Positions 3,730 to 25,096 of a DNA stretch of 32,000 nt are shown here, piece by piece. The translations under genes and the position numbers were made by a program. This DNA is from Geobacter sulfurreducens PCA (GTDB lineage Bacteria; Desulfobacterota; Desulfuromonadia; Geobacterales; Geobacteraceae), in assembly GCF_000007985.2 (NCBI RefSeq), contig NC_002939.5, positions 1,350,001 to 1,382,000 of the forward strand, written 5' to 3'. How positions within the stretch are numbered: position 1 is the stretch's first letter; every line of letters begins with the position of its first letter. The notes beneath the pieces were generated by a model. It saw only the letters and a program-made list of their open reading frames with translations. It did not search any database and had not been told where the DNA came from.

Positions 3730-3767
3730 TGGCATTGTTTTTGATTGAGGGTGGGCACCAATTCTGT
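3730..3767 (+). promoter_or_regulatory. Candidate sigma-54 (-24/-12) promoter(s) for the downstream cluster
   Basis: Two candidates against the consensus TGGCACG-N4-TTGCW. At 3730-3744, TGGCATTGTTTTTGA has the GG and TTG at correct spacing but the -12 C is replaced by A. At 3753-3767, GGGCACCAATTCTGT has GGCAC plus TG at correct spacing. Both are imperfect at the -12 GC. They lie 72-109 nt upstream of the ATG at 3839. Confidence 0.4.
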
Positions 3768-3838
3768 AATCACAAGGGCTGTTCCCGTTGTCAGCCGGGA
3801 ATTGATCCGCAAGCCACGTTGGGCAGGAGGTTGTCCGG

Positions 3839-6800
3839 ATGAATGTTACTACACTATGGGGTGGATGGTTCAAGGCGCTACTTGCGGCGGCATTTATCCT
3901 GGCCACCCTTGGTGCTCCGGCCGCTGGATGGAGCGCCGTGCCGCACGTGGCGGCCGGCGGGAACCATGTGCTGACCCTCCGTTCGGACGGGACCCTCTGG
4001 GCGGCCGGCTCCAACCAGTTTGGACAATTGGGCGACGGTACGGGCATAAACCGGACGTCACCGGTGCAGGTGCCCGGCACATGGAAGACCGTGGCTGCCG
4101 GGACCACCCACTCGCTGGGCATCAAGGCCGACGGTTCGCTCTGGGCTTGGGGGTCGAACCTGTTCGGCCAACTGGGACAGCCGCTCGTCAACGGGCAGTT
4201 GGCAACGAACAAATTTTCCCCCATCCGCATCGGCACCGGTAATGACTGGGTGGCCGTATCGGCCGGCGAGTTGACCTCCTTCGGCCTCAAGGGGGACGGT
4301 ACCCTCTGGTCCTGGGGGAACAACCTCTTCGGTGAGCTTGGAGACGGCACCACGGTGAGCCGGCCTCAACCCGTGCAGGTAGTGGCAGATCCCCTCAGCA
4401 ACGGCAGATATGTGGCAGTGGCAGCCGGTGGCGAGCATGCCCTCGCGCTCCAGGCCGACGGCACGCTCTGGGCCTGGGGGGCCAACCTGACGGGGCAGCT
4501 GGGAACCGGGGGGACGGGAATCCTGCCGAATCCAACTCCTCTCAAGATCGGTACGGATCGGGACTGGACCGCAATTTCGGCTGGTGAGATGCATTCCGTT
4601 GCCCTCAAAGCCGACGGGTCGCTGTGGAGCTGGGGGCAGAACCTGTTCGGCGAACTGGGCAACGGCGTTGCCCTGCCGGGCGCCAATGTGACGACCCCCA
4701 CCCGTGTCGGAACGGGGAGCGACTGGGTCGCCATCGCCGCTGGGGCGCTCCATACCGTCGCCCTTCATCGCAACGGCACGGTCTCGGCATGGGGCAACAA
4801 TGCCCAGGGCGCGGTGGGCGACGGTACGGTTGCCAACAGAAGCACCCCGACCCTGATCGTCGCTCCGGTCACACTTGTCAATAACGTCGCCATAGCCGCC
4901 GGCACTGGCGTTTCCTTCTCCGTCCTGGCCAACGGCACCGTGTTCGGCTGGGGCGGCAACGGTGCCGGCCAACTGGGCAACGGCACCTTCGGGGCGGTTA
5001 CTGCACCCACGGTCCTCTCCGCCGGGGCATCTGCCTGGCTCGGCGTGGAGCCGGGCGGGGCATTTTCGCTGGGCCTTCGCTCCAACGGAACCCTATGGGC
5101 CTGGGGCGGCAACGCGAGCGGCCAGTTGGGTGACGGCACCACAACCCCCTCAGCCATCCCCGTGCCGGTTGTGGGCGGTGCCGGGAACTGGCGGACCACC
5201 GCCACGGGCACGGCCCACTCCGTTGCCGTCAGAGCCGACGGAACACTCTGGGCCTGGGGCGACAACAGCAGCGGCCAGCTCGGTATCGGTTCCACGGTTG
5301 CCGCGTCGACGCCGCAGCAGATTACGGTGACCAATCCCGCCTCGGCCGGCAATGACTGGACCGCCGTAGCGGGTGGAGGAGCTCACTCCCTCGGACTCAA
5401 GGCCGACGGAACGCTCTGGTCTTGGGGCGACAACACCTTCGGGCAATTGGGCGACGGCACCGGCACCTCCAACAGGACCACGCCGGTTCAGATCGTTACC
5501 GGCAATCCCGGCAATTTCGACCGGAACTGGGTGGCCGTGGCGGCCGGCGGAGTGTTCTCGCTGGCCCTCCAGGCCGATGGCACCATCTGGACCTGGGGCG
5601 ATAACAGCCTTCTTCAGCTGGGGACCGATCCGGCGATGCTGACCCCGGCCACCCAGCGCAACGTGCCGGCCCAGCTCGCGGTGGCGAGCCCCCCCTCGAC
5701 CGCCTTCAACAGCAGCTGGGTTGCCATCGCCGCCGGTCAGGATCACGGCCTCTCCCTGCAGGCGGACGGAACCCTCTGGGCCTGGGGAGCCAACAGTGTC
5801 GGGCAGTTGGGCAATGGCGTAACTACAGCCACTTTTACGCCGGTTCAGGTTATTAATGCTGAGGGCGTTCCCTACGTCTCCCTTGCGGCAGGCACCTCCC
5901 ACTCCCTTGCCGGCCGGTCTGACGGCACCCTCTGGGCCTGGGGGAACAATACCAGCGGCCAACTCGGCACGGGCCCCCATCCCGGCGATGCCGATCCGCT
6001 CAATCCCCAGCCCCACACCGTTCCGGCCCGGATTCTCACGTCGAATCCCGTGTCTGCGGCCGATGACTGGCTTGTCGCTACGGCGGGCGGGAGCCATTCC
6101 GCTGCCCTGAAGAGCAACGGTACGCTGTGGACGTGGGGGCAGAACACCTCGGGGCAGCTGGGCAACGGTACCACCACCGAGGCCGATATCCCCACCGCGC
6201 TCCTGGAGCCCCGTATCTCCGTGTCGCCCGCCAGTCTGGCGTTCGGCCCGGCCCCCATCGGCATCCCGCCGTCGCCGACCCGTACCCTCACCATCACCAA
6301 CCTGGGCTCGGCGCCGCTGTCGGCAGCTATCGCCAGCAACAATGCCGCATTCACCGTCAATCCGGCCGCCTGTAACAATCTGCCGCCCGCCGGCTTCTGC
6401 GAAATTACCGTAACGTTTGTCCCGGCGCTCCCCGTGGGGGTGAAAAGCGCCACGCTCACCATTACTTCCAATGATCCGGTTACTCCGCTGGTCTCTGTCG
6501 GTGCGACCGGGACGGCTGCGAATCCGTTCTTCATTACGGCTTCCGTTGATCCTGCCTCGCCGGTCGGCAGCGGCACCATCTCACCGGCGGGAGTACAGGC
6601 GGTCGCCGCCGGGGGAGGGGCCACCTATACGATCACGGCCGCCAGCGGCTACGCCATCGTGGACGTGATCGTGAACGGCGTTTCCCGGGGACCCATCGGC
6701 TCGTACACCTTTGTCAATGTCCAGCAGGACCAGTCCATCATCGCCCTGTTCGCCGCATCCGTGACGATCAGCGCTTCCTCGGGACCCGGGGGGATCATCA

Positions 6801-9800
6801 GCCCCACCGGCACCGTCAGCCTGCCGCTGGGTGGAAGCCAGAAGTTCACGATCACGCCGAACCCGGGCTATGCCATTGCCGGCGTGAACGTCATCGAGAT
6901 GGTTGAGCAACTGGATGTGAACGGCAACGGTACCGGCATCTTCAATCCGGTCCCCCGGGCGCTGGGCCCGGTCTCGTCCTTCACGTTCTTTTCGGTGCGC
7001 GCCAACGGTTCGAGCATTTCAGCAACATTCGTCCCCCGCGAACTCCATGAGTGGAGCTGGCAGAATCCGAAGCCCCAGGGACAGGCCATCAGTCGCATTG
7101 CCACGGACGGCAACGGCACCTACGTGGCAGTGGGCGAATTCGGCACCATCCTCACCTCCACCGACAGTGTCAACTGGACCGTGCGGACTTTCGGCTCGGT
7201 CAACCTCAACAGCGTTGCCTATGGCGGCAACCATACCTTCGTGGCCGTGGGCAGCTACGGCAGGATCCTGCTCTCCACCGACGACGGGGCCACCTGGACG
7301 GTCCAGAGCTCGGGGGTGACGGCCAGCCTCAGGGGAGTCGCCCACAGCGGGACGGTCTTCGCCGCGGTCGGTGTTACGGAAAACAACCCCAATTTCCCCT
7401 ATGAACCGCGAACCGCCATCCTGACCTCGCCGGACGGCGTGACCTGGACGTCGCGCTTCCTTGATCAGCCGTTCAACGGCACCCTGAATCTGTTCGACGT
7501 GGCCTACGGCGGCGGCAGGTTCGTTGCCGTGGGCATGGAAGGGCACGTGGTCATCTCCGAGGACAATGGCGGCAGCTGGACCGCGCTGCCTTCCGACCCG
7601 GTGACGCGTCCCACCAATCTCAACGGCGTGGCCTTCGGCGCCGGAACGTTCGTTGCCGCGGGAGACTTCGGCCAGATCGTCACCTCGACCGATGGATCCA
7701 ACTGGGTGAACCGGCCGCTGATGTCGGTGGCCGAGCTGAAAGGGGTCGGCTTCGGCACCATCTCCGACCCGCTCTTCGCGGGCAACCTGCTTCAGGTCTT
7801 TACGGTGGTTGGAACCGACGGCGAAATTCTCACCTCGGAAGATGCCGGCACCACCTGGACGTTCCGTACCTCCGGCCTTGCGGCCGGTGGAGCCGGTCCG
7901 ATGCTCCAGGCGGCCATGGTGGGACTCAACAGGGGAGTCACTCCCTTCGTGCCCACGGTCATTGTCGCCGGCAGCGAAGGTAACTTGCTCGCGTCGTCCG
8001 ACACGATTGACTGGACGAATCTGTTCACCACCATCACCCGTTACCCCCTGCGTTCCATTGCCTGGGGCAACGGCACCTTTGTTGCCGTGGGCGACGGAGA
8101 CCCCGGCACCACGCTGCATCCACCGATTTCCGCGCCCACGGTCCTTACCTCCACCAACACGGGCCTTACCTGGACCAGGCGCTACCTCAGTCCGGGCCAC
8201 AACATCCGCGGCATCGCATACGGCAACGGCGTATTCGTAGCCGTTGGCGCCAGCGGCTACGACCTGGACCAGAACGCCAGCCGTCAGGCCATCATCCTGA
8301 CCTCCACCAACGGCATCACCTGGACCCCCAGGAACTCCGGCACCTTCCTCAATCTCAATGCCGTCACCTTCGCCAACGGCAGATTCGTGGCGGTCAGCGA
8401 CTACAACGCCACCGGCGACGTGGCCGATGAGGGCGCCCTGATTCTGGTCTCCACCAACGGTATCACCTGGAACACGATCAGGAAGATCACCAGCACGGCC
8501 GGAAACCTGCGCAGCGTGATCGCCGGGACCAACGGCACCACGCCGGCGTTAGTAGCGGTGGGCGACTTCGGGACGGTCCTGAGGTCGATCGATAACGGAC
8601 AGAACTGGACCGAGGTCACCAGCGGCACCATCAATTTTGCCGAGCTGAACGGGATTGCATTCAACAACACGTCCAACACCTATGCGGCTATCGGTATCAC
8701 CAGCGAGGTGTTTACCTCCACTGATAACGGTGCCACCTGGAGCATGAGGTCCCTGCCGGTAGACGATACCCTGCTGGTCAGGATGGAGGGGATCACCTAC
8801 GCCTACGGCTCGTTCGTGGCGGTGGGCAACGACAACCACATCCTCACTTCGCCCGACGGTGCCAGCTGGACCATCAATATTGGCGCGGAATACATCAACA
8901 GCAGCCTCTACGGCGTGGCAGCCGGCAACGGCAGCTACATCGCGGTGGGGAGCGACGGGACGATCCTGCAGTCCAACCGCTTGCTCGACAATCCGCCGAT
9001 CATCGGCGTAGACCCCACCAGCCTGACATTCGACATCACCCCCGAGGGTACCCTGTCCGCGGGCCAGGTCATCACCATCAGCAACCTGGGGATCAATGAT
9101 CTGACCATCGGCGCTCTTGGCTTCGACGGCTCGGACGCAGGTGAGTTCACCGTCAGCGAGGATTTCTGCTCTCAGGCCGTCATTCCGGCCACCGGCAGCT
9201 GCACCGTTGTCGTCACCTTCGCGCCGACCGGGGCAGGCGTCAAGTCCGCCGAACTGAAGATCCCGTCCAACGATCCGGACAGCAACGATATCGAGGTGCC
9301 CGTGAGCGGAACGGCCATTCCCCGTTACCTCCTGACGGTGACCAACGCCGGCAACGGCACCGGCAGCATCGCCAGCAGTCCGGCGGGAATCAGCATTACG
9401 AACAGCGCCGCCGGAGCGAACAGTTCGGCGCTGTTCGTGGTCGATACGGCAGTGACCCTGACCGCGACTCCTGCCGTCGGCTCCATCTTCGAGGGCTGGT
9501 CCGGCGCCGGGGCCGGGGCGTGCAGCGGCACAACCACCCCCTGCACCCTGACCATGTCCCAGGCCCGGAACGTGACGGCCACCTTCACCCGGAAGTTCAT
9601 CATCACCGCCACGGCCGGCGCCAACGGCAGCATATCGCCGGCGGGCCAGGTCCTGGTGAATCCCGGTGCGAACCAGGCGTTCACCATCACCCCGGCACCG
9701 GGCTACAGCGTTTTCGGCGTACTGGTCAACGGACTGTCGGTGGGGGCCGTCACGAGTCACACCTTCACCGCCGTCAATGCCGACCAGACGATCAGCGCCA

Positions 9801-10087
9801 CCTTCACCGGGGTGCCGCCGGTCAGGCTGACGCTCCAGTCCGGCAACAACGTCTTTTCGACCATCGGCCAGGCGGTTGCCGCGACGCCGGTCAATACGGC
9901 CGCGACCATCGATGCCCAGGCAGTCCAGACCGCCGACAACGGTTTGACGTTAAACAGGGGGATCACGCTCACCTTCAGGGGGGGATATGGCGCCGGCTTC
10001 TCGGGCATTGTGGGCATGACCACGGTCACGGGGCCGGTCACCGTGACCAATGGCTCCCTGACCGTATCCGATATGGTGATCAAATGA
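3839..10087 (+). CDS. Giant secreted multidomain protein: 14 RCC1 repeats, then an Ig-like (choice-of-anchor-D-like) domain and 2 InlB-B-repeat-like domains, then ~14 Asp-box (BNR) blades, then a second Ig-like domain and 2 B-repeat-like domains, then a short C-terminal domain
   Basis: Single 2082-aa ORF. AGGAGG at 3825-3830, 8 nt before the ATG. Signal-peptide-like N-terminus MNVTTLWGGWFKALLAAAFILATLGAPAAG. Fourteen GxLGxG RCC1 signatures (for example SNQFGQLGDGT, QNTSGQLGNGT). Thirteen to fourteen Asp-box motifs (STDDGATW, SEDNGGSW, STDNGATW and others). Domain family names come from sequence-pattern memory, not HMMs. Confidence 0.9.
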   Translation: MNVTTLWGGWFKALLAAAFILATLGAPAAGWSAVPHVAAGGNHVLTLRSDGTLWAAGSNQFGQLGDGTGINRTSPVQVPGTWKTVAAGTTHSLGIKADGSLWAWGSNLFGQLGQPLVNGQLATNKFSPIRIGTGNDWVAVSAGELTSFGLKGDGTLWSWGNNLFGELGDGTTVSRPQPVQVVADPLSNGRYVAVAAGGEHALALQADGTLWAWGANLTGQLGTGGTGILPNPTPLKIGTDRDWTAISAGEMHSVALKADGSLWSWGQNLFGELGNGVALPGANVTTPTRVGTGSDWVAIAAGALHTVALHRNGTVSAWGNNAQGAVGDGTVANRSTPTLIVAPVTLVNNVAIAAGTGVSFSVLANGTVFGWGGNGAGQLGNGTFGAVTAPTVLSAGASAWLGVEPGGAFSLGLRSNGTLWAWGGNASGQLGDGTTTPSAIPVPVVGGAGNWRTTATGTAHSVAVRADGTLWAWGDNSSGQLGIGSTVAASTPQQITVTNPASAGNDWTAVAGGGAHSLGLKADGTLWSWGDNTFGQLGDGTGTSNRTTPVQIVTGNPGNFDRNWVAVAAGGVFSLALQADGTIWTWGDNSLLQLGTDPAMLTPATQRNVPAQLAVASPPSTAFNSSWVAIAAGQDHGLSLQADGTLWAWGANSVGQLGNGVTTATFTPVQVINAEGVPYVSLAAGTSHSLAGRSDGTLWAWGNNTSGQLGTGPHPGDADPLNPQPHTVPARILTSNPVSAADDWLVATAGGSHSAALKSNGTLWTWGQNTSGQLGNGTTTEADIPTALLEPRISVSPASLAFGPAPIGIPPSPTRTLTITNLGSAPLSAAIASNNAAFTVNPAACNNLPPAGFCEITVTFVPALPVGVKSATLTITSNDPVTPLVSVGATGTAANPFFITASVDPASPVGSGTISPAGVQAVAAGGGATYTITAASGYAIVDVIVNGVSRGPIGSYTFVNVQQDQSIIALFAASVTISASSGPGGIISPTGTVSLPLGGSQKFTITPNPGYAIAGVNVIEMVEQLDVNGNGTGIFNPVPRALGPVSSFTFFSVRANGSSISATFVPRELHEWSWQNPKPQGQAISRIATDGNGTYVAVGEFGTILTSTDSVNWTVRTFGSVNLNSVAYGGNHTFVAVGSYGRILLSTDDGATWTVQSSGVTASLRGVAHSGTVFAAVGVTENNPNFPYEPRTAILTSPDGVTWTSRFLDQPFNGTLNLFDVAYGGGRFVAVGMEGHVVISEDNGGSWTALPSDPVTRPTNLNGVAFGAGTFVAAGDFGQIVTSTDGSNWVNRPLMSVAELKGVGFGTISDPLFAGNLLQVFTVVGTDGEILTSEDAGTTWTFRTSGLAAGGAGPMLQAAMVGLNRGVTPFVPTVIVAGSEGNLLASSDTIDWTNLFTTITRYPLRSIAWGNGTFVAVGDGDPGTTLHPPISAPTVLTSTNTGLTWTRRYLSPGHNIRGIAYGNGVFVAVGASGYDLDQNASRQAIILTSTNGITWTPRNSGTFLNLNAVTFANGRFVAVSDYNATGDVADEGALILVSTNGITWNTIRKITSTAGNLRSVIAGTNGTTPALVAVGDFGTVLRSIDNGQNWTEVTSGTINFAELNGIAFNNTSNTYAAIGITSEVFTSTDNGATWSMRSLPVDDTLLVRMEGITYAYGSFVAVGNDNHILTSPDGASWTINIGAEYINSSLYGVAAGNGSYIAVGSDGTILQSNRLLDNPPIIGVDPTSLTFDITPEGTLSAGQVITISNLGINDLTIGALGFDGSDAGEFTVSEDFCSQAVIPATGSCTVVVTFAPTGAGVKSAELKIPSNDPDSNDIEVPVSGTAIPRYLLTVTNAGNGTGSIASSPAGISITNSAAGANSSALFVVDTAVTLTATPAVGSIFEGWSGAGAGACSGTTTPCTLTMSQARNVTATFTRKFIITATAGANGSISPAGQVLVNPGANQAFTITPAPGYSVFGVLVNGLSVGAVTSHTFTAVNADQTISATFTGVPPVRLTLQSGNNVFSTIGQAVAATPVNTAATIDAQAVQTADNGLTLNRGITLTFRGGYGAGFSGIVGMTTVTGPVTVTNGSLTVSDMVIK
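3944..6205 (+). repeat. Array of 14 tandem RCC1-type repeats (about 54 aa each; enough for two 7-bladed propellers)
   Basis: Recurrent unit ...AGxxHSLALxxDGTLWAWGxNxxGQLGDGT... counted 14 times between residues 36 and 789 of the 3839-10087 product. Confidence 0.85.
7040..8980 (+). repeat. Array of ~14 Asp-box/BNR beta-propeller blades (about 46 aa each)
   Basis: Recurrent (I/V)LTSxDxGxxWT followed by ...L.GVAYGNGxFVAVG. Thirteen full motifs plus a truncated ILQSN, spanning residues ~1068-1714 of the 3839-10087 product. Confidence 0.8.
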
Positions 10088-17150: not shown

Positions 17151-17153
17151 ATC

Positions 17154-18497: not shown

Positions 18498-18517
18498 TCG
18501 CTTACAGGGTGCTGCAT

Positions 18518-19102
18518 ATGAAAACGAATAGCTGGCGTATCCTTCTCATTCTCGTTTCCTGTGTCTGGCTGAGTCAGCCCCTGTCCGCCGTGGCGGCACC
18601 GGCCACGTTCGCCTCGGCCACGGTGAAGCTTCATGATCTGGAATTGCTCGACCAGGATGGAAAGTCCCGGCGCTTCCAGAGCGATGTCATCGGCGACCGG
18701 CTGGTGGCCATTACGTTCACCTACACCACCTGTACCACCATCTGCCCCATCCTCGACTCGATCTTCGTGACGCTCCAGAAAAAGCTCGGTGCCCGGATGG
18801 GAAAGGATTTCCACCTGATCACCATGAGTATCGACCCGGTCAACGACATCCCGAAGCGGCTCAAGGCCTATTCCCTGAAACTCGGCGCCCGTCCCGGCTG
18901 GACATTCCTGACCGGCAGCAAGGTGAACATGGACAAGGTGCTCGTGGGCCTCGACATGTACAGTCCGGACATTTACAACCACCCCCCCTCCATTATCGTC
19001 GGGGATGGCAAGACCGGGGCCTGGCAACGGTTTTACGGTTTCCCGTCGGCCGACAAGATTCTTTCGTCCCTCACTGAACTGCAGAAGGCGCGTCACCATT
19101 GA
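18518..19102 (+). CDS. SCO1/SenC-family periplasmic copper chaperone (thioredoxin fold)
   Basis: The ORF is open from a GTG at 18509. The ATG at 18518 has better spacing to AGGGTG and gives MKTNSWRILLILVSCVWLSQPLSA. CxxxC motif TYTTCTTICP (18731-18745), plus MSIDPVNDIPKRLKAY, PGWTFLTGS and the downstream His in YNHPPS. Confidence 0.85.
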   Translation: MKTNSWRILLILVSCVWLSQPLSAVAAPATFASATVKLHDLELLDQDGKSRRFQSDVIGDRLVAITFTYTTCTTICPILDSIFVTLQKKLGARMGKDFHLITMSIDPVNDIPKRLKAYSLKLGARPGWTFLTGSKVNMDKVLVGLDMYSPDIYNHPPSIIVGDGKTGAWQRFYGFPSADKILSSLTELQKARHH

Positions 19103-19119
19103 ACCGCCGGGAGAACCAC

Positions 19120-19743
19120 GTGAGAATCACGTTGTCAGCACCTGTCATTGCGCTTTGCCTGTTGCTTGCGGCAACATTACTGCCATGTACCGCCGCGGCC
19201 GCGCCCCAGTCGCCGCAGGGAACCGCTCTCGACCGCAGGACCGATGAAGCGGCCCGCGCCTATTTTACCGACCTCAAGCTGACAACCCACGAAGGCAAGG
19301 TCGTCCGCTTCTATACGGACATCCTTAAGGACAGGGTTGTTCTGATTCACTTTTTCTATACCAATTGCAAGACCGTGGCCACGCTCCAGACCAAGGTTCT
19401 CTCGGACCTGCAGCCGCTGCTGGGCGATCGCCTCGGCAAAGATATCTTTCTGGTGTCGATCAGCGTGGACCCGGCCCGCGACACCCTCGAGCATACCCGC
19501 GCCTATGCCCGGGCGTTTGCTCCCCGCCCGGGCTGGACCTTTCTGACCGGTTCCAAGGTGAACCTGGACTGGGTGAACTACAAACTGGGCAACTACAAGG
19601 AGAATCCCGAAGAGCACGAGACGTTCTTTCTCCTCGGGAACCTCAGGACCGGCCACTGGATCAAGAATAAACCGGAGACCTCGGCGCGAACCCTGGCGGA
19701 GCACCTGATCCAACTGGCCGACGAAAAACAGGTGAAGCGATGA
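19120..19743 (+). CDS. SCO1/SenC-like paralogue with a degenerate metal site (CxxxA)
   Basis: The frame is open from a TTG at 19099. The GTG at 19120 is preferred (GGGAG at 19109-19113, 6-nt spacing) and gives a signal-peptide-like RITLSAPVIALCLLLAATLLPCTAAAA. Aligns with the upstream SCO protein (ISVDPARDTLEHTRAY, PGWTFLTGSKVN), but the motif reads FFYTNCKTVAT (19366-19380). Confidence 0.75.
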   Translation: MRITLSAPVIALCLLLAATLLPCTAAAAPQSPQGTALDRRTDEAARAYFTDLKLTTHEGKVVRFYTDILKDRVVLIHFFYTNCKTVATLQTKVLSDLQPLLGDRLGKDIFLVSISVDPARDTLEHTRAYARAFAPRPGWTFLTGSKVNLDWVNYKLGNYKENPEEHETFFLLGNLRTGHWIKNKPETSARTLAEHLIQLADEKQVKR

Positions 19744-21365
19744 TCGGCATGACGGTACGGACGGCGAGATCATGCCTGACCTCACTGGCGCTGCTGCTCC
19801 TGGCTTTTGCGGCCGGAGCACTGGCTCCCCTGCAGCAGTCGTGGGCTTCGCCCGGGCTCACTCCGGCCGAGGAGCGGGGGCGGCAGATTTACTTCGACGG
19901 TACGAGCCCGTCGGGGGCGCCGATCATTGCCTATTTCGGCAAGGACTACCTGGAGGTGCCCGGCGAATCGGCCACATGCACCAGTTGTCACGGCTTCGAC
20001 GGACTCGGCCGTACCGAAAGCGGCGTCATCCCTTCCAATGTCACTTGGCAGCACCTTATGAAAAGCTACGGCCACGTCCACCCCGACGGCCAGGTCCACG
20101 GGGCGTTCAACGAAGAGAGCCTGAAGAGCTACATGCGTGACGGCCTCTACCCCGGCGGGGTGCTGGGTGATCCGGCCATGCCGGTTTACGAGATCTCCGA
20201 GCAGGACCTGGATGACCTCATCGCCTACATGAAACGGCTGGGCATCCACCCCGATCCGGGTGTCAGCGCCACTACCGTGCGAGTCGGCACGATCATTCCC
20301 GCTGAAGGAGCCACGGCTGCTCTCGGCGAAGCTCTCACCGCCACGGTGCGCGCCTCGTTCGCCGATGTGAAGGAGCGGGGCGGAGTGTATGGCAGAAACC
20401 CCGAGCTGGTCGTCGCCACGATTGCCTCCGGCCAGGATCTGAAGTCGGTGTTCCGTCGCCTGGTGGAGGAACAGCAGGTGTTCGCCCTGCTCAATACCTT
20501 GACTCCCGGTCAGGAGCGCGAACTGGAAACCCTGGCGGAAGAATTTCATGTTCCCCTCATCGCCCCCTTCGCGCCTGTCCATACGGATGATCAGCTGCTG
20601 CACCGCTACCGGTTCCACCTGCACGGGGGGGTGCGGGAACAGTCGCTCGGCCTGGTTTCGTTCGCCATCAAGAAGCGTGGCGCCGGGGATTCCCGGATCG
20701 CCATCGTCTACCCCGCGCGGGAAGAGATCGAAGAGGTGGCGGTATCCATCGATGATGCCTGCCGGGCCGGCGGAGGGCAGCGGGTTGTCAGGATTTCCCA
20801 TGCTCCCGGCCTGTTCGACGCGGCGGCTACCGTGAGCCGGCTGCAAGCGGAGCAGGTTGAGGTGGTGTTTTTCCTGGGCGGGGAAGGGGAGTCTGACTCC
20901 TTTTTCCGGGAGGCCGAAGCGCGCGCCTACATTCCGTCGTTTTTCATGCCGGGCTTCCTGTTGGGTAAAGGGATTACCCAGGTGCCGGCGGCATTCAGCG
21001 GAAAGGTCTGGCTGGCGTTTCCCTCCCTGCCTGAGGACCGGAAAGAATGGGGCCTGGCAGAATTCAACGCTGTCATGGGGCGGCAGAGAGTGGTTGTGGG
21101 CAACCCAACCGTCCAGTTGACGGCTTTTACCGGGGCCAAACTTTTTCTGGAAGGGCTGCGGCGCGCAGGGCGGGACCTCAGCAGGGAACGGTTCGTGGAA
21201 ACCTTGGAAAAGGTGTTCGAGTATGACACGGGTCTTGCCCAGACCATTACCTATACTAGAAACCACCGTATCGGCACGTTGGGTACCCACGTAGTGGTGG
21301 TGGATCCGCTCCAGGCGGGCACGGAGAAGTTTATTATACCGCAGGGATGGATCGACCTGGAGTAG
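19740..21365 (+). CDS. Exported fusion protein: class I c-type cytochrome domain plus type-1 periplasmic solute-binding (LivK-like) domain
   Basis: 541-aa ORF whose ATG overlaps the previous stop (ATGA). Signal peptide SLALLLLAFAAGALA. Single haem motif CTSCH at 19977-19991, with a distal PAMPVYEISEQDLDDLIAYMKRL typical of small c-type cytochromes. The remaining ~400 aa resemble branched-chain amino-acid-type ABC substrate-binding proteins (family call from overall pattern only). Confidence 0.8.
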   Translation: MIGMTVRTARSCLTSLALLLLAFAAGALAPLQQSWASPGLTPAEERGRQIYFDGTSPSGAPIIAYFGKDYLEVPGESATCTSCHGFDGLGRTESGVIPSNVTWQHLMKSYGHVHPDGQVHGAFNEESLKSYMRDGLYPGGVLGDPAMPVYEISEQDLDDLIAYMKRLGIHPDPGVSATTVRVGTIIPAEGATAALGEALTATVRASFADVKERGGVYGRNPELVVATIASGQDLKSVFRRLVEEQQVFALLNTLTPGQERELETLAEEFHVPLIAPFAPVHTDDQLLHRYRFHLHGGVREQSLGLVSFAIKKRGAGDSRIAIVYPAREEIEEVAVSIDDACRAGGGQRVVRISHAPGLFDAAATVSRLQAEQVEVVFFLGGEGESDSFFREAEARAYIPSFFMPGFLLGKGITQVPAAFSGKVWLAFPSLPEDRKEWGLAEFNAVMGRQRVVVGNPTVQLTAFTGAKLFLEGLRRAGRDLSRERFVETLEKVFEYDTGLAQTITYTRNHRIGTLGTHVVVVDPLQAGTEKFIIPQGWIDLE

Positions 21366-21394
21366 CGTGGTGAGCGGTTATTAAAAAATGGGGC

Positions 21395-21423: not shown

Positions 21424-21455
21424 AATGATTGGATTTTTTCCCGAGGAGTCCCGGC

Positions 21456-21938: not shown

Positions 21939-21943
21939 CCGCC

Positions 21944-22249
21944 GTGACGGTGCGCAAGTCCACGGTCTTCATCGCCTTTGTCGCGGCGGAGCTGCTGGTG
22001 CTGATTGCCATTGTCGTCCACGCCTTTATCGTCGGCGGCAGGGAATCCCGTCTCGCCGAGCAGCGTGCCATGGTGAAGCGCCTCTCCCTCACTGACCTGG
22101 CGCTGTTCACTGATGCACGTTATACCCGGCATCCGTCCATGGCAGACCTCCACAGTCCGTTCCAGGATTACCCGCTTTCGTTCGAACATTTTCCCTCCGG
22201 CTCCCTCATGGCGCCGCCTCCCCACGTGAGGACCTATGGCCGGCATTGA
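21944..22249 (+). CDS. Small single-pass membrane protein, unknown function
   Basis: 101-aa ORF with a GTG start 5 nt after the NosL stop. One hydrophobic helix, VFIAFVAAELLVLIAIVVHAFIV. It overlaps the next gene by 14 nt, which suggests translational coupling. No recognisable motif. Confidence 0.55.
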   Translation: MTVRKSTVFIAFVAAELLVLIAIVVHAFIVGGRESRLAEQRAMVKRLSLTDLALFTDARYTRHPSMADLHSPFQDYPLSFEHFPSGSLMAPPPHVRTYGRH

Positions 22250-23369
22250 AAAATACCGGAGCATCATCGATTTCACCCTGTCTTCATTGCTGCGGCGCAA
22301 GGGCAAGAACAGCGCCCTGCTCTTCGTCTACACCCTGGTGGTGTTTCTCCTGGCGTCGCTCATGCTCTACACCCAGGCCCTGCGCCGTGAGGCGGCGGCG
22401 GTCCTGGCCGATGCCCCTGAACTGGTGGTCCAGCGGATCATGGCGGGCCGGCACGACCTGATTCCGGTTGACTATAGCGAGAAAATCAGGGAGATCCGAG
22501 GGGTTCGCTCGGTGCGTGCGCGGTTGTGGGGGTACTACTACGATCCGCTCTTCGGCGCCAACTATACCCTGATGGTCCCGGAGCAGTTCACCTGGGAGCC
22601 GGGAAGCGTAGCGGTGGGGAACGGTCTGACCCGCAGCAGCATGGCGGCGAAAGACAATATCATGCCCTTCTACGATCACACGGGAACCCTGGTGACCTTT
22701 ACGGTGGCCGAGGTGCTGCCGCCTTCTACGGAGATGGTTTCAGCGGACCTGGTGCTCATGGGGACGGACGATTTCCGTACACTCTTCGGCGTGCCGCAGG
22801 GCATGGCAACCGACCTCGTGGTGGAGGTCGCCAATCCAGTGGAAGTCCCCACCATCGCCGGCAAGATCGTAAAACTCCTCCCCGATACCCGTCCCATTTC
22901 CCGGGACGAGATCCTGCGCACCTACGACGCGGTCTTCAACTGGCGCAGCGGGATCATGCTGGCCGTTCTCTGTGGCGCGCTCCTCTCCTTTTTTATTTTC
23001 GCCTGGGACAAGGCCACCGGCCTGTCCGCCGAGGAACGAAAGGAGATCGGCATTCTCAAGGCGGTTGGATGGGATACCGGCGACGTGCTGGTAATGAAAT
23101 TCGGCGAAGGGGCAATCATCTCGCTCACGGCATTTCTCGTGGGGGGAACCCTGGCCTACGGGCACGTCTTCTTCACCTCGGCCGCCCTGTTCGGGCCGGT
23201 ACTCAAGGGGTGGTCGGTGCTCTATCCGTCGTTCCGGCTGGTTCCGCACGTCGACTTCGGGCAGCTGGCAGTGCTTTTCTTTCTTGTGGTGGTCCCCTAT
23301 ACCGTGGCGACCATCGTTCCCGCATGGCGGGCGGCCACCGTGGATCCCGATTCGGTCATGAGAGGGTAG
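22236..23369 (+). CDS. ABC transporter permease, FtsX/MacB (type VII) family
   Basis: 377-aa ORF. TM1 (ALLFVYTLVVFLLASLMLY), then a ~200-aa extracytoplasmic domain, then three C-terminal TM helices with the FtsX-like segment EIGILKAVGWDTGDVLVMKFGEGAIISL. Confidence 0.85.
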   Translation: MAGIEKYRSIIDFTLSSLLRRKGKNSALLFVYTLVVFLLASLMLYTQALRREAAAVLADAPELVVQRIMAGRHDLIPVDYSEKIREIRGVRSVRARLWGYYYDPLFGANYTLMVPEQFTWEPGSVAVGNGLTRSSMAAKDNIMPFYDHTGTLVTFTVAEVLPPSTEMVSADLVLMGTDDFRTLFGVPQGMATDLVVEVANPVEVPTIAGKIVKLLPDTRPISRDEILRTYDAVFNWRSGIMLAVLCGALLSFFIFAWDKATGLSAEERKEIGILKAVGWDTGDVLVMKFGEGAIISLTAFLVGGTLAYGHVFFTSAALFGPVLKGWSVLYPSFRLVPHVDFGQLAVLFFLVVVPYTVATIVPAWRAATVDPDSVMRG

Positions 23370-23370
23370 C

Positions 23371-24054
23371 GTGATATCCCTGCACGATGTGAGCAAGATC
23401 TTCAACAGCGGCAAAGCCAACGAATACGCGGCGCTCCGGGGCATTACCGTCGATATTGCTCCCTGCCGCGTGACGGTCCTGAAAGGGCCCAGCGGCTCGG
23501 GTAAAACCACCCTGCTCAGTATCCTTGGCGGGATGGCGCGCCCTACGACCGGCCGGATCGTCCTGTTCGATCGCGAGATCACCAGTCTGCCCGAGCGGTT
23601 CCTGAGCGATATCAGGCGCCGTACCTTCGGGTTTATCTTCCAGCAGTTCAACCTGATCCGCGGCATCAGCCTGCTGGAAAACGTCATGATCCCCGCCTAC
23701 CCCATGGGAGAGCGCCATGGGCTGCTCAAGGCGAGGGCCATGTCCACCCTGGAGGTGTACGGCCTTGCCGGCAGAGCCGCGACCAGGGTGGAACTCCTCT
23801 CGGGGGGGGAGATGCAGCGGGCCGCCATCGCCCGGGCCCTGATCAACGATCCGCCCGTGATCATCGCGGACGAGCCCACGGCGCACCTGGACACGAAGCT
23901 CTCCGGCGAATTCCTGGATCATATGACCCGCCTCAAGGATGAGGGGAAGACCATCATCATGGCGAGCCACGATCCGCTGGTGATCGACGCGGGGCTGGTC
24001 GACCGGATTGTGGCCATCCGCGACGGCAGGCTGGCCGACGGGGCGGCCCCGTGA
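23371..24054 (+). CDS. ABC transporter ATP-binding protein (MacB/LolD-like)
   Basis: 227-aa ORF with a GTG 1 nt after the permease stop. Walker [11 protein letters not shown]-loop FQQFNL, signature [15 protein letters not shown], Walker [14 protein letters not shown]-loop ASHD. Confidence 0.93.
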
Positions 24055-25046
24055 TCCTTCACCCGGCCGTCATCGCCCTGTTCGTCGGTTCGCTCCTGAC
24101 CAGCGGCATGCTCGTGGCGACGGCGTTCTTCGCGGTTAAGATCCTGCGCCACTGGGACCTTGCCAGCGGCAGCGAACGGCAGCTTTCGTTCGAGCGCCGT
24201 ACCTACCTTCTTGCCACAATCATGACCTGCTGCTGCGTGTTCCAGCTCCTGTCCCTGTTTCTCTTCATTCACGTGGCCGACAGCCTGAGCGCGCTCTTTC
24301 CCGGAGCCATGTGCGCGGCAGGGACCCTCAACCTGAATCGTTTCGGGTACCCTACGCTGGTCCTTAAAATAACCACTTTTCTGCTGGCCGGTTTCTGGCT
24401 CATCCTCAATCATGCGGACAACCAGGGATATGATTATCCCCTCATCCGGATCAAATACTCGCTGCTGCTGGTGATAACGCCGCTGCTGCTGGCCGAGACG
24501 GGACTGCAGGGGGGGTATTTTCTCTCCTTGCAGCCCCGGGTGATCACGTCATGCTGCGGGAGCCTGTTCGGCGGGGAGTCGAGCGGCATGGTTCCAACCC
24601 TGACTACCCTGGGGGATGTTCCGGCGCTCGCCACGTTGGGAGGAGTCTTAACGCTCACCCTGATCTGCGGGGGGATCTACCTGTGGCTGGGAAGGATGGG
24701 GTACCTGTTTGCCGCGTTATCCGCCGCAACCTTCGCCGTCGGCGTGGTGGGGCTGCTCTCGGCGATCCCGGTCTACATCTATGCCCTTCCCACCCACCAC
24801 TGCCCCTTCTGCATGCTGCACCGCGAATACGGGCATGTGGGCTATCTCCTCTACGCGACCCTGCTTGGCGGTGGGGTGGCGGGGGTGGGTATGGGAGGGC
24901 TCCAGCCCTTCAGGCGGGTGGCGAGCCTGGCATCGTCGCTTCCTATGCTCCAGCGCCGTCTGGTCCTTTTCGCCATGGTCTGCTACGGGCTGTTCGGAGG
25001 GATCGCGGCCTGGCAGGTGATGGTTTCCGAGTTACGGCTCGTGTAG
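24051..25046 (+). CDS. Cys-rich polytopic (~8 TM) membrane protein, unknown family
   Basis: 331-aa ORF whose GTG overlaps the ATPase stop (GTGA). Multiple hydrophobic helices. Cysteine clusters: CCC (24228-24236), SCC (24549-24557) and HHCPFC (24795-24812). Confidence 0.7.
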   Translation: MILHPAVIALFVGSLLTSGMLVATAFFAVKILRHWDLASGSERQLSFERRTYLLATIMTCCCVFQLLSLFLFIHVADSLSALFPGAMCAAGTLNLNRFGYPTLVLKITTFLLAGFWLILNHADNQGYDYPLIRIKYSLLLVITPLLLAETGLQGGYFLSLQPRVITSCCGSLFGGESSGMVPTLTTLGDVPALATLGGVLTLTLICGGIYLWLGRMGYLFAALSAATFAVGVVGLLSAIPVYIYALPTHHCPFCMLHREYGHVGYLLYATLLGGGVAGVGMGGLQPFRRVASLASSLPMLQRRLVLFAMVCYGLFGGIAAWQVMVSELRLV

Positions 25047-25067
25047 CGGACAGACCTTCAGGCAATG

Positions 25068-25096
25068 AAAAAAGCCCGGATCGCTCCGGGCTTTTT
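25068..25096. terminator. Bidirectional rho-independent terminator
   Basis: AAAAAA-GCCCGGA-tcgc-TCCGGGC-TTTTT. A perfect 7-bp GC-rich stem flanked by an A-run and a T-run, lying between the convergent genes that end at 25046 (+) and 25119 (-). Confidence 0.8.

What the first reader, a model, noticed from the sequence alone, without database searches (positions are those of the whole stretch)
3730..25096. Sigma-54-controlled ~21 kb cluster pairing a giant multicopper oxidase with a nos-like copper-delivery toolkit, but no NosZ
Seen in sequence:
- Twelve co-directional ORFs (3839-25046). Junctions range from a 14-nt overlap to a 38-nt gap, apart from one 90-nt gap (21366-21455).
- The cluster is bracketed by -24/-12-like elements (3730-3767) and a strong bidirectional hairpin terminator (25068-25096).
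- A PAS kinase and an NtrC-type activator sit directly upstream.
- The first eight products all begin with signal-peptide-like N-termini.

Established knowledge: NosL, SCO/SenC proteins, c-type cytochromes and an ABC ATPase/permease pair are the accessory set usually found around the copper enzyme nitrous-oxide reductase.

Inference:
- The only plausible copper-enzyme client here is the 1652-aa multicopper-oxidase-like protein.
- Its leader has no twin-arginine motif, so it would be exported unfolded and would need copper inserted after export.
- The cluster could therefore be a dedicated envelope assembly line made of chaperones, an energised ABC module, a cytochrome redox partner and propeller/cohesin scaffolds.
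- I do not know of a characterised system with this composition.
Basis: partly seen in the sequence, partly recalled or inferred. Interest (0 to 1): 0.8.

Follow-up and report, generated by a model that had tools for sequence, protein, structure and literature searches.

The report
Geobacter MnxG-type copper oxidase operon
This is the already-annotated GSU1249-GSU1257 region of Geobacter sulfurreducens plus five downstream genes: a sigma-54-controlled version of the widespread MnxG/MofA "manganese-oxidase" multicopper-oxidase operon, joined to an uncharacterised five-gene NosL/ABC copper-handling cassette that is the only new part.

Summary
Twelve co-directional genes have exactly the stated junctions. 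A PAS kinase and an NtrC-type activator lie upstream, a -24/-12-like element at 3730-3745, and a strong hairpin at 25068-25096.

The window is G. sulfurreducens PCA. The 1652-aa protein is GSU1252, a MnxG-family six-domain multicopper oxidase with all four copper motifs.

The core order (oxidase, beta-propeller, two SCO proteins, cytochrome c fused to a binding protein) matches the Pseudomonas putida GB-1 mnxG operon. That operon is sigma-54/MnxR dependent. The same core recurs in about half of 55 species-level loci across phyla. A characterised system of this composition therefore exists.

The cluster and its sigma-54 promoter were already flagged in 2009 and 2012.

"nos-like" applies only to NosL. 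The ABC pair is FtsX/MacB type, not NosFY, and NosD is absent.

The new point is that NosL, a small membrane protein, FtsX, an ABC ATPase and a 331-aa Cys/His-rich membrane protein form a self-standing, widespread cassette. That last protein has no Pfam family and no PDB fold match. The cassette sits beside multicopper oxidases, CopA, Cus and DsbD genes elsewhere.

Verdict: a new variant of a known kind, of moderate interest.

The parts
359..374 (+). Sigma-54-type -24/-12 element (TGGCATgttttCTGCT, GG and GC both present), 78 nt upstream of the kinase gene. Suggests autoregulation of the two-component operon.
   Evidence: 10/12 match. Leang 2009, additional file 4, lists a predicted RpoN site for operon 582, GSU1249-1250.
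452..2026 (+). GSU1249, PAS sensor histidine kinase. Two N-terminal TM segments and no large periplasmic domain.
   Evidence: Pfam PAS_9/HisKA/HATPase_c. Hydropathy. Locus tag.
2054..3463 (+). GSU1250, NtrC-type sigma-54 enhancer-binding response regulator.
   Evidence: Response_reg + Sigma54_activat (194 bits) + HTH_8. Homologues lie next to the oxidase in 17 of 55 species loci.
3554..3570 (.). Perfect palindrome TGTAACgaattGTTACA. Candidate upstream activator site for GSU1250, about 175 nt before the -24 element.
   Evidence: Only match in the 32 kb at up to 2 mismatches. Its function is inferred.
3702..3714 (+). IHF consensus TATCAAattgTTG, between the palindrome and the promoter.
   Evidence: Only WATCAANNNNTTR match in the window. 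IHF plus sigma-54 sites are reported for P. putida PmnxG (PMC11930936).
3730..3745 (+). -24/-12 element TGGCATtgtttTTGAT (GG present; GA instead of GC at -12).
   Evidence: Published as PromScan Promoter 91, score 81, targeting GSU1251-1257. The TGGCAT-N5-TTGAT form is conserved in L001.
3839..10087 (+). GSU1251, 2082-aa secreted RCC1-propeller / Ig-like / BNR-Sortilin / choice-of-anchor-D protein. A Geobacteraceae-specific partner placed before the oxidase.
   Evidence: Pfam and NCBIfam. Exact match to AAR34627.1. Present in L001, L002, L004, L007 and L059 only.
10114..15072 (+). GSU1252, 1652-aa MnxG/MofA-family multicopper oxidase with a Sec-type leader. Motifs: HxxHxH 445-450, HCHxxxHxxxxM 498-509, HxH 804-806, HxH 906-908.
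   Evidence: NCBIfam copper_ox_MnxG 1433 bits. PDB 9bxa MnxG 9.2e-97. Motifs. Locus tag from PMC3600357.
15111..17150 (+). GSU1253, YncE/cytochrome-d1-type beta-propeller with an Ig-like C-terminal domain. The most conserved partner of the oxidase. Carries a conserved YxEGMxxPMG motif.
   Evidence: Pfam YNCE/Cytochrom_D1. Present in 40 of 55 loci. Conserved residues.
17154..18497 (+). GSU1254. Cohesin-like N-terminal domain, Pro/Ala/Ser-rich linker, C-terminal domain with one dockerin-like loop FDLNGDGTRDYRDDY. Restricted to the Geobacter lineage.
   Evidence: No Pfam hit for the window sequence itself. Homologues P0272 and P0274 pass Pfam Cohesin. The model's best 42 PDB matches are all cohesins, E 5e-6. 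Only 9 homologues found.
18509..19102 (+). GSU1255, SCO1/SenC protein with an intact CTTIC (CxxxC) copper motif. The published annotated start corresponds to window 18518.
   Evidence: Pfam 52.3 bits. Motif conserved in orthologues.
19099..19743 (+). GSU1256, second SCO1/SenC paralogue. Its motif is degenerate (CKTVA; the second Cys is lost).
   Evidence: Pfam 58.9 bits. Other lineages keep CTSVC; the loss is shared with L002.
19740..21365 (+). GSU1257, MofC-like fusion of a mono-haem cytochrome c (CTSCH 80-84, Met147) with a type I periplasmic binding domain.
   Evidence: Pfam Cytochrom_C + Peripla_BP_6. Conserved haem ligands in 33 orthologues. MofC architecture from PMC5566968.
21456..21938 (+). 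NosL-family Cu(I) chaperone with a signal peptide and a CPVCGM motif. First gene of the five-gene cassette. Preceded by a 90-nt AT-rich gap.
   Evidence: Pfam NosL 106.8 bits. P. stutzeri NosL 7osf, E 2e-9. The gap has no hairpin.
21944..22249 (+). 101-aa single-pass membrane protein. A constant member of the cassette.
   Evidence: No Pfam hit. One TM segment. 41-76% identical copies in every cassette locus.
22236..23369 (+). FtsX/MacB-type permease (type VII ABC). Four TM segments and a periplasmic domain of about 190 aa between TM1 and TM2.
   Evidence: Pfam FtsX. NCBIfam LolC/E far below cut-off. Topology.
23371..24054 (+). ABC ATPase of the FtsE/LolD/MacB class.
   Evidence: Pfam ABC_tran. 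Best NCBIfam hits are FtsE, LolD, DevA and MacB, all below cut-off; NosF is not among the 25 best shown.
24051..25046 (+). 331-aa polytopic membrane protein of an unnamed family. Invariant motifs: GAMCAAG, ITSCCGSLF and THHCPFC.
   Evidence: No Pfam or NCBIfam hit. Alignment A2. AF2 pLDDT 80 with no PDB fold match. 1181 clusters at 50% identity.
25068..25096 (.). Bidirectional intrinsic-terminator-like hairpin A5-GCCCGGA-tcgc-TCCGGGC-T5, shared with the convergent yhbY gene.
   Evidence: sequence. (-27.6 kcal/mol, z = -3.9).

Best explanation
The region is a Geobacter version of the MnxG/MofA-type envelope metal-oxidase system.

**Regulation.** A two-component pair (PAS kinase GSU1249 and sigma-54 activator GSU1250) drives a UAS-IHF-sigma-54 promoter in front of GSU1251.

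**Core products.**
- The transcript encodes a Sec-exported giant multicopper oxidase, GSU1252. It has one type-1 copper site and one trinuclear copper site. It would oxidise a reduced metal, most likely Mn(II) by homology, and reduce O2.
- Four conserved partners follow: a beta-propeller, two SCO-type thioredoxin-fold copper chaperones, and a MofC-like cytochrome c fused to a binding protein.

**Copper loading.** The oxidase crosses the membrane unfolded, so it must receive its four coppers in the periplasm. The SCO proteins are the likely donors.

**Lineage-specific additions.**
- An RCC1/BNR surface protein and a cohesin-like scaffold are specific to Geobacteraceae and close relatives.
- A separate five-gene cassette follows: NosL, a small TM protein, an FtsX permease, an ABC ATPase and a Cys/His-rich membrane protein. 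It most likely moves or buffers periplasmic Cu(I). It would work in a way analogous to NosL docking on the NosDFY ABC complex, and so supply or protect the oxidase.

**Shown versus inferred.** Shown: family assignments, copper motifs, synteny, promoter architecture and cassette modularity. Inferred: substrate, direction of copper flow, co-transcription of all 12 genes, and any role in Geobacter physiology.
For: **Identity.**
- The window is G. sulfurreducens PCA. Its gene coordinates match the published ones with a constant offset of 1350003.

**Oxidase.**
- NCBIfam MnxG 1433 bits; Bacillus MnxG structure 9bxa at 9e-97.
- All four copper motifs are present and invariant in alignment A1.

**Core synteny.**
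- In 55 species-level loci of at least 15 kb, the propeller is present in 40, SCO in 34 and the cytochrome c fusion in 30. The propeller lies directly downstream of the oxidase in 27.
- The order equals the P. putida GB-1 mnxG operon: mnxG, YVTN propeller, SCO, SCO, binding protein with a cytochrome c domain (PMC11409713).
- An annotated Roseomonas plasmid shows the same order.

**Regulation.**
- The activator is adjacent in 17 of 55 loci.
- -24/-12 elements sit 130-200 nt upstream of the oxidase in 8 of 14 loci with the activator and 0 of 7 without it.
- The palindrome and the IHF site are each unique in the window.
- A published PromScan site covers the element.
- P. putida mnxG needs rpoN and MnxR and has IHF plus sigma-54 sites.

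**Sec export.** Only 3 of 117 homologues carry an RR motif.

**Cassette.**
- It is intact in L088-L092 and in 26 metagenome loci; NosL is present in 23 of those 26.
- Its neighbours are about 750-aa Tat-type oxidases (9 loci), SCO plus binding protein, CopA-type ATPase, DsbD/thioredoxin, a DsbD-cupredoxin fusion and Cus RND pumps.
- It lies next to MnxG-like oxidases in L017, L087 and L091.

**NosL.** Homologous to the NosL that docks on NosDFY (7osf).
Against: - No experiment links GSU1252 to Mn(II) oxidation, and G. sulfurreducens is not known as a Mn oxidiser.
- The oxidase scores far below the MnxG equivalog cut-off (1433 against 3100 bits).
- The -12 dinucleotide is GA, not GC, and the PromScan score was near the bottom of the published list.
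- RpoN overexpression changed only GSU1253, by -1.41-fold.
- The published operon prediction ends at GSU1257, and a 90-nt gap precedes nosL.
- From the oxidase side, the cassette is adjacent in only 1 of 55 species loci, and NosL in none.
- The cassette also occurs with efflux genes and no oxidase. That fits detoxification as well as delivery.
- The second SCO has lost one copper-binding cysteine.
Confidence: 0.6

Rival explanations
1. Extracellular electron-transfer accessory. GSU1252 and its partners would act like the paralogous OmpB/OmpC multicopper proteins of G. sulfurreducens. They would help reduce insoluble Fe(III)/Mn(IV) oxides or electrodes, for example by binding the mineral or shuttling electrons through the MofC-like cytochrome. 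They would not oxidise metals with O2.
For: - The ompB cluster GSU1394-1398 also has a MofC-like cytochrome and an SCO gene, and OmpB is homologous to MofA (PMC5566968).
- Butler 2012 reports raised expression of this cluster on electrodes; GSU1253 rose 1.65-fold.
- Oxidase homologues occur in other metal reducers: Anaeromyxobacter oryzae L072 and Candidatus Methanoperedens L012/P0034.
- The RCC1/BNR and cohesin-like surface proteins fit a cell-surface role.
Against: - The expression change is small.
- No mutant phenotype is reported, and the cluster's role is stated as unstudied.
- The complete O2-reducing trinuclear copper site is conserved.
- The same operon is common in aerobes and Mn oxidisers: Pseudomonas, Methylobacter, Roseomonas and Acidobacteriota.
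Confidence: 0.15
2. Copper-detoxification island. The oxidase would act as a cuprous oxidase, like CueO or PcoA. The NosL/ABC/Cys-rich cassette would sequester or expel periplasmic Cu(I). The cluster would protect the cell rather than build an enzyme.
For: - Cassette neighbours elsewhere include a CopA-type P-ATPase, CusB/CzcB-ACR_tran-OEP pumps, YtkA and Fur.
- About 750-aa Tat-type oxidases resembling resistance oxidases sit beside the cassette in 9 loci.
Against: - The MnxG-type core is conserved without the cassette in nearly all lineages.
- In P. putida the orthologous promoter requires aqueous Mn for activation, and the enzyme oxidises Mn.
- The kinase has a cytoplasmic PAS domain and no periplasmic metal-sensing domain.
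- No CopA, CusA or CueR gene lies in this window.
Confidence: 0.12
3. Not one functional unit. The twelve genes would be two or three independently regulated modules placed side by side: RCC1 plus oxidase; propeller to cytochrome c; and the NosL cassette. There would be no dedicated assembly line.
For: - The published operon call ends at GSU1257.
- A 90-nt AT-rich gap precedes nosL.
- The cassette stands alone in other genomes.
- In L001 only the RCC1 protein, the oxidase and the regulators are adjacent.
Against: - There is no terminator or consensus sigma-70 promoter in the gap.
- In the Pelobacter MAG the genes were rearranged into two divergent operons yet stayed adjacent, and the cassette is still fused behind the cytochrome c gene (L007/L087).
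- L017, L091 and L092 independently join the cassette to large oxidases.
Confidence: 0.13

Closest known systems
Pseudomonas putida GB-1 mnxG operon with the MnxS1/MnxS2/MnxR sigma-54 pathway
   Same: - A giant MnxG-family oxidase.
- The same gene order: oxidase, YVTN/YncE beta-propeller, SCO1/SenC, SCO1/SenC, binding protein with a cytochrome c domain.
- Histidine kinase(s) plus an NtrC-type sigma-54 activator.
- IHF plus sigma-54 promoter architecture.
   Different: - The Geobacter oxidase is about 300 aa shorter and scores below the equivalog cut-off.
- There is no SurA-like last gene.
- The regulators are adjacent rather than about 70 genes away.
- Added genes: the RCC1/BNR protein, the cohesin-like GSU1254 and the NosL/FtsX/ABC/membrane-protein cassette.
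- The host is an anaerobic metal reducer with no known Mn(II) oxidation.
Leptothrix discophora mofABC and the G. sulfurreducens ompB cluster (GSU1394-1398)
   Same: A large secreted oxidase is clustered with a MofC-type cytochrome c/periplasmic-binding fusion. In Geobacter and some Fe oxidisers an SCO chaperone is also present (PMC5566968). Butler 2012 already likened GSU1251-1257 to a Leptothrix complex.
   Different: - No MofB (FKBP isomerase) homologue is present here.
- OmpB carries a fibronectin III domain and has a Fe(III)-oxide reduction phenotype; GSU1252 has neither shown.
NosDFY-NosL copper-delivery machinery of nitrous-oxide reductase (P. stutzeri, PDB 7osf)
   Same: A true NosL homologue with the CxxCGM motif is encoded next to an ABC ATPase/permease pair. 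In both cases a Sec-exported copper enzyme needs periplasmic metallation. The idea of an ATP-driven periplasmic Cu(I) relay carries over.
   Different: - The permease is a 4-TM FtsX/MacB type, not the ABC-2 type NosY.
- The ATPase groups with FtsE/LolD/MacB, not NosF.
- There is no NosD beta-helix protein and no NosZ.
- Two extra membrane proteins (101 aa and 331 aa) have no Nos counterpart.
Type VII (MacB/LolCDE/FtsEX) mechanotransmission ABC transporters
   Same: Four TM helices with a large periplasmic domain between TM1 and TM2. A cognate FtsE/LolD-like ATPase overlaps or abuts the permease gene.
   Different: All named equivalogs score far below cut-off. The transporter is always partnered with NosL, a 100-aa TM protein and the Cys/His-rich 330-aa membrane protein. 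No substrate is known.

Membership tests
MnxG-type multicopper oxidase (NCBIfam NF041487 copper_ox_MnxG) | Score at or above the curated equivalog cut-off (3100 bits) | tested here: not met
   1433 bits over 4 stretches. This marks a full-length homologue, not an equivalog.
MnxG-type multicopper oxidase (NCBIfam NF041487 copper_ox_MnxG) | Four copper-ligand motifs (HxH, HxH, HxxHxH, HCHxxxHxxxxM) giving one T1 site and one trinuclear site | tested here: met
   445-450, 498-509, 804-806 and 906-908. Invariant in 14 diverse homologues. Aligned to the same motifs of Bacillus MnxG 9bxa.
MnxG-type multicopper oxidase (NCBIfam NF041487 copper_ox_MnxG) | Mn(II) oxidase activity | not testable with these tools
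   Needs a leucoberbelin-blue or in-gel Mn oxidation assay on G. sulfurreducens or on purified protein.
mnxG-type operon (P. putida GB-1) | Gene order: oxidase, beta-propeller, SCO, SCO, cytochrome c/binding-protein fusion | tested here: met
   Pfam calls compared with Table 4 of PMC11409713. The same order appears in 27 or more species loci. The Pseudomonas accessory sequences themselves were not aligned.
mnxG-type operon (P. putida GB-1) | Terminal SurA-domain chaperone gene | tested here: not met
   No SurA or rotamase domain in any of the 12 products.
mnxG-type operon (P. putida GB-1) | Dependence on sigma-54 and an NtrC-type response regulator | tested here: inconclusive
   Activator adjacent. 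-24/-12-like site with GA at -12. IHF and palindrome sites each unique in the window. Published prediction. No transcriptional data beyond -1.41-fold for GSU1253.
Nos accessory system (NosDFYL) | NosL copper chaperone | tested here: met
   Pfam NosL 106.8 bits against a 24-bit cut-off. 7osf NosL, E 2e-9.
Nos accessory system (NosDFYL) | NosD periplasmic beta-helix protein, NosY ABC-2 permease and NosF ATPase | tested here: not met
   No NosD domain in any product. The permease is FtsX type. The best ATPase hits are FtsE, LolD, DevA and MacB.
Nos accessory system (NosDFYL) | NosZ client enzyme nearby | tested here: not met
   Every gene I scanned in the window is assigned to another family. The propeller GSU1253 hits the lactonase-type NosZ model at only 51.5 bits against a 700-bit cut-off. 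It lacks a conserved His cluster.
Type VII ABC transporter (MacB/FtsX/LolC) | Four TM helices with a large periplasmic domain between TM1 and TM2, plus the FtsX C-terminal domain | tested here: met
   TM segments at 24-42, 236-254, 284-302 and 335-353. Pfam FtsX 33.8 bits against 25.5.
Cohesin-dockerin scaffold | Cohesin beta-sandwich module | tested here: met
   The window sequence has no Pfam hit. Homologues P0272 and P0274 pass Pfam Cohesin. The N-terminal domain of the model (pLDDT about 80) gives 42 top PDB matches that are all cohesins, E 5e-6, TM 0.6-0.66.
Cohesin-dockerin scaffold | Duplicated dockerin calcium-binding repeats on a partner protein | tested here: not met
   Only a single DLNGDGTRDYRDD loop was found, in GSU1254 itself. 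None was found in the other 13 products.

The most novel reading that the evidence does not exclude
The five-gene cassette would be a previously undescribed, widespread periplasmic Cu(I)-trafficking machine. Its members are NosL, a 100-aa TM protein, an FtsX permease, an ABC ATPase and a 330-aa Cys/His-rich membrane protein. It would be a functional analogue of NosDFYL built on a type VII mechanotransmission ABC transporter, and it would metallate Sec-exported multicopper oxidases of several size classes, including GSU1252. The 330-aa protein, with its invariant GAMCAAG, SCCGS and HHCPFC motifs, would be a new copper-conducting or copper-reducing membrane protein family.
Probability: 0.3. Interest if true: 0.7.

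Novelty: new variant of a known kind. Interest (0 to 1): 0.42.

Why it matters
- **Oxidase biogenesis.** How giant Sec-exported multicopper oxidases obtain copper is unknown, even in the Pseudomonas and Bacillus Mn-oxidase models. A conserved propeller/SCO/MofC set, and in some lineages a NosL-ABC cassette, gives concrete candidates to delete.
- **Geobacter physiology.** An O2-reducing MnxG-type oxidase under its own sigma-54 two-component switch in a model anaerobe could bear on oxygen tolerance. It could also bear on metal cycling at oxic-anoxic interfaces.
- **The cassette.** It occurs in more than a thousand 50%-identity protein clusters. It has no name, no Pfam family for two of its five proteins, and no solved fold for the largest. 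Its function would fill a gap in bacterial copper homeostasis.

Tried and rejected
- **NosZ-like propeller.** I asked whether GSU1253 could be a cryptic NosZ-like copper propeller. The L-NosZ hit is 51.5 bits against 700, and only one His is conserved. Rejected.
- **Second -24/-12 element.** The element near 3752-3767 matches fewer than 9 of 12 positions. Set aside.
- **Internal signals in the 90-nt gap.** No hairpin, terminator or consensus sigma-70 promoter was found. The best hand-read hexamers are weak. Inconclusive.
- **Palindrome and IHF site in relatives.** Neither is conserved in L001, L004, L007, L059 or L087. Only the -24/-12 element is conserved.
- **Fold search for the 331-aa membrane protein.** No PDB match; best E 0.48.
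- **Plasmid search for an annotated Pseudomonas-type operon.** It gave a Roseomonas example. The best hit, Indioceanicola, carries no annotation.
- **Literature searches.** GSU1254-1261 and NosL+FtsX+copper returned nothing relevant.
- **OmpB/OmpC/MofA sequences.** These could not be obtained, so direct relatedness was not measured.
- **GSU1254 model.** Mean pLDDT is 57. Only the N-terminal domain is usable, and the C-terminal domain remains unassigned.

Full report
**Source and observation**

The window is Geobacter sulfurreducens PCA. The 2082-aa ORF at 3839-10087 is identical to AAR34627.1. The coordinates of seven genes match those printed for GSU1251-1257 in Leang et al. 2009 with a constant offset of 1350003. 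GSU1252 is listed as a 1652-aa protein in PMC3600357.

- Twelve co-directional ORFs run from 3839 to 25046.
- The junctions are +26, +38, +3, +11, -4, -4, +90, +5, -14, +1 and -4 nt.
- A PAS histidine kinase (452-2026) and a receiver/sigma-54-interaction/HTH_8 activator (2054-3463) lie directly upstream.
- The hairpin at 25068-25096 is strong: -27.6 kcal/mol, z = -3.9, with no shuffle folding as well. The pattern scanner missed it because its A5 and T5 flanks can pair.

**What the genes are**

Pfam and NCBIfam give the following assignments.

| Locus | Assignment |
|---|---|
| GSU1251 | RCC1 propellers, Ig-like, BNR/Sortilin, choice-of-anchor D |
| GSU1253 | YncE/cytochrome-d1-type beta-propeller |
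| GSU1255, GSU1256 | SCO1/SenC |
| GSU1257 | cytochrome c plus Peripla_BP_6 |
| downstream genes | NosL, an FtsX permease, an ABC ATPase |

- **The oxidase.** The 1652-aa protein barely passes Pfam Cu-oxidase_2 (20.5 against 20.4 bits). It scores 1433 bits against the NCBIfam model for Pseudomonas MnxG (cut-off 3100) and 9e-97 against the solved Bacillus MnxG, 9bxa.
- **Copper motifs.** It has exactly the four multicopper-oxidase motifs: HxxHxH 445-450, HCHxxxHxxxxM 498-509, HxH 804-806 and HxH 906-908. All are invariant in 14 diverse homologues.
- **Export.** Its leader lacks a twin arginine, and only 3 of 117 homologues have one. Sec export and periplasmic copper insertion is therefore a fair inference.
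- **GSU1254.** It has no Pfam hit itself. Two of its nine homologues pass the Cohesin model. The N-terminal domain of an AlphaFold model returns only cohesins as its best 42 PDB matches. The "cohesin" guess holds at fold level.

**Comparison with relatives**

A scan of one genome per species found at least 592 genomes with a relative of the oxidase. I ran tblastn of all 14 window proteins against the fetched loci. Among 55 loci of at least 15 kb the counts were as follows.

| Partner | Loci with it (of 55) |
|---|---|
| Beta-propeller | 40 |
| SCO gene | 34 |
| Cytochrome c fusion | 30 |
| Sigma-54 activator | 17 |
| RCC1 protein | 2 |
| FtsX/ABC/membrane cassette | 1 |
| NosL | 0 |

The propeller lies immediately downstream of the oxidase in 27 loci. 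The phyla include Acidobacteriota, Myxococcota, Methylobacter, Roseomonas and Chloroflexota. An archaeal Methanoperedens locus carries the oxidase and a weak propeller match but no SCO or cytochrome fusion.

This conserved core is, gene for gene, the putative mnxG operon of Pseudomonas putida GB-1: mnxG, YVTN beta-propeller, SCO1/SenC, SCO1/SenC, substrate-binding protein with a cytochrome c domain, and SurA (PMC11409713). Mn(II) oxidation there depends on two kinases, the sigma-54 activator MnxR and rpoN. PmnxG carries IHF and sigma-54 sites.

The cytochrome c/binding-protein fusion is the MofC architecture of the Leptothrix mofABC cluster. The G. sulfurreducens ompB cluster has the same fusion and also an SCO gene (PMC5566968).

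So a characterised system with this composition does exist. Butler et al. 2012 had also already singled out GSU1251-1257 as a third copper oxidoreductase cluster, up on electrodes, unstudied and Leptothrix-like.

**Regulation**

The element at 3730-3745 (TGGCATtgtttTTGAT) has GA instead of GC at -12. Matches of equal quality occur about 34 times in the window, so alone it proves nothing. Four things raise it.
- It is PromScan Promoter 91 of Leang et al., assigned to GSU1251-1257.
- The only IHF consensus (3702-3714) and the only TGTAAC-N5-GTTACA palindrome (3554-3570) in 32 kb lie just upstream.
- A 67%-identity relative has TGGCATgcttgTTGAT 140 nt before its RCC1 gene.
- In distant loci, GGCAC-N5-TTGC[AT] sits 130-200 nt upstream of the oxidase in 8 of 14 loci with an adjacent activator and in 0 of 7 without one.

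The kinase-activator operon has its own better site at 359-374.

Experimental support in Geobacter is thin. Only GSU1253 changed, by -1.41-fold, on RpoN overexpression.

**The last five genes are a separate module**

The published operon prediction ends at GSU1257, at the 90-nt gap. That gap has no hairpin, terminator or consensus promoter.

- **The 331-aa protein family.**
  - More than 3700 hits in the word-indexed search and 1181 clusters at 50% identity.
  - No Pfam or NCBIfam family.
  - Invariant GAMCAAG, ITSCCGSLF and THHCPFC motifs.
  - A confident model (pLDDT 80, pTM 0.81) with no PDB fold match.
- **Cassette integrity.** Around its homologues the same cassette recurs: NosL, a roughly 100-aa TM protein, FtsX, ABC and the 330-aa protein. 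It is intact in all 5 long contigs not chosen for their context, and NosL is present in 23 of 26 metagenome loci.
- **Recurrent neighbours.** These are about 750-aa Tat-type multicopper oxidases (9 loci), SCO plus binding protein, a CopA-type P-ATPase, DsbD/thioredoxins, a DsbD-cupredoxin fusion and Cus-type RND pumps with YtkA.
- **Links to large oxidases.**
  - The cassette lies behind the cytochrome c gene, without NosL, in L017 and in a Pelobacter MAG.
  - It lies in front of two tandem MnxG-like oxidases with a divergent activator in L091.
  - It lies behind a 1297-aa oxidase, an SCO gene and a binding protein in L092.
  - In the Pelobacter MAG the cluster is split into two divergent operons that remain adjacent.

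The cassette is thus copper-linked and repeatedly recruited to multicopper oxidases. It is not specific to them.

**"nos-like"**

NosL is genuine: 106.8 bits in Pfam, and E 2e-9 to the P. stutzeri NosL of the NosDFY-NosL complex, with the shared CxVCGM motif. The remaining Nos components are missing or of a different kind.
- The permease has four TM helices and a roughly 190-aa periplasmic domain, which is the FtsX/MacB/LolC topology.
- The ATPase is closest to FtsE, LolD, DevA and MacB.
- No NosD and no NosZ is present.

The analogy is one of principle, a chaperone plus an ATP-driven periplasmic relay. It is not family membership.

**Most likely mechanism and rivals**

My best reading, at confidence 0.6, has three parts.
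- GSU1249/1250 activate a UAS-IHF-sigma-54 promoter.
- The Sec-exported apo-oxidase is loaded with copper in the periplasm by the SCO proteins. It works with the conserved propeller and the MofC-like cytochrome, oxidising a reduced metal (Mn(II) by homology) while reducing O2.
- The RCC1/BNR and cohesin-like proteins tether it in Geobacteraceae, and the NosL cassette supplies or buffers Cu(I).

Family assignments, motifs, synteny and promoter architecture are shown. Substrate, direction of copper flow and co-transcription are inferred.

The rivals are an OmpB-like role in extracellular electron transfer (0.15), a copper-detoxification island (0.12), and merely adjacent, independent modules (0.13).

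**Verdict**

The cluster is a lineage-specific variant of the known MnxG/MofA-type operon, in a genome where it was already annotated and remarked upon. The new element is the uncharacterised NosL/type VII ABC/Cys-rich membrane-protein cassette. Interest is moderate.

Noticed in passing
window 331-374: A good sigma-54-type site (TGGCATgttttCTGCT, 359-374) lies 78 nt upstream of the kinase gene. An inverted second site (TGGCACATTTTGTGTA) on the minus strand starts at 346 and faces a small divergent gene. This suggests autoregulation of GSU1249-1250 and perhaps a bidirectional sigma-54 region.
   Followed up: partly
window 19099-19743 (residues 90-94 of the product): The second SCO paralogue has CKTVA where orthologues in other phyla have CxxxC (mostly CTSVC). 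The loss of the second copper-binding cysteine is shared with the closest relative, L002 (CKTIA).
   Followed up: yes
window 21456-25046; L088 7425-11005; L089 7425-11005; L091 6547-11002; L092 7174-10999: NosL, a small TM protein, FtsX, ABC and a 330-aa membrane protein form a self-standing cassette found widely in anaerobe-rich metagenomes. It often sits beside copper genes (Tat-type oxidases, CopA, Cus, DsbD-cupredoxin). I found no paper describing it.
   Followed up: yes
window 24051-25046: The 331-aa membrane protein belongs to an unnamed family (1181 clusters at 50% identity). It has five invariant Cys and two invariant His. It has no Pfam or NCBIfam model, and a confident AlphaFold model has no PDB fold match.
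   Followed up: yes
window 15111-17150 (residues 480-489): The beta-propeller partner carries a YxEGMxxPMG motif conserved in 54 orthologues, plus two conserved Cys (126, 542) and one conserved His (274). This may be a Cu(I)-binding Met motif. It is not a CuZ-like His cluster.
   Followed up: partly
L007 and L087 (same contig, JAVBXN010000011.1): In a Pelobacter MAG the cluster is split into two divergent operons sharing one intergenic region. One runs cadherin-like gene, RCC1 gene, oxidase. The other runs propeller, GSU1254-like gene, SCO, SCO, cytochrome c fusion, then the cassette without NosL.
   Followed up: partly
L091 11356-21002: Two tandem MnxG-like oxidases (about 1930-1960 aa, 38-40% identical to GSU1252) follow a complete NosL cassette. 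A divergent PAS/sigma-54 activator lies upstream.
   Followed up: partly
L012; protein P0034: A 54%-identical oxidase occurs in Candidatus Methanoperedens nitroreducens, an archaeal methane oxidiser. This suggests transfer of this enzyme across domains among organisms at metal-rich redox interfaces.
   Followed up: no
window 27326-29167: Two long ORFs overlap on opposite strands. The + strand one (27359-29167) is LepA, followed by signal peptidase I (29192-29860). The 423-aa minus-strand ORF has no Pfam hit and is probably spurious. Many long antisense ORFs of this kind occur across the GC-rich cluster, for example 12004-14163 on the minus strand.
   Followed up: yes
window 17154-18497 (residues 407-421): GSU1254 combines a cohesin-like N-terminal module with a single invariant dockerin-like calcium loop (FDLNGDGxxxYxDDY) in the same protein. 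No partner in the cluster carries a dockerin repeat.
   Followed up: partly
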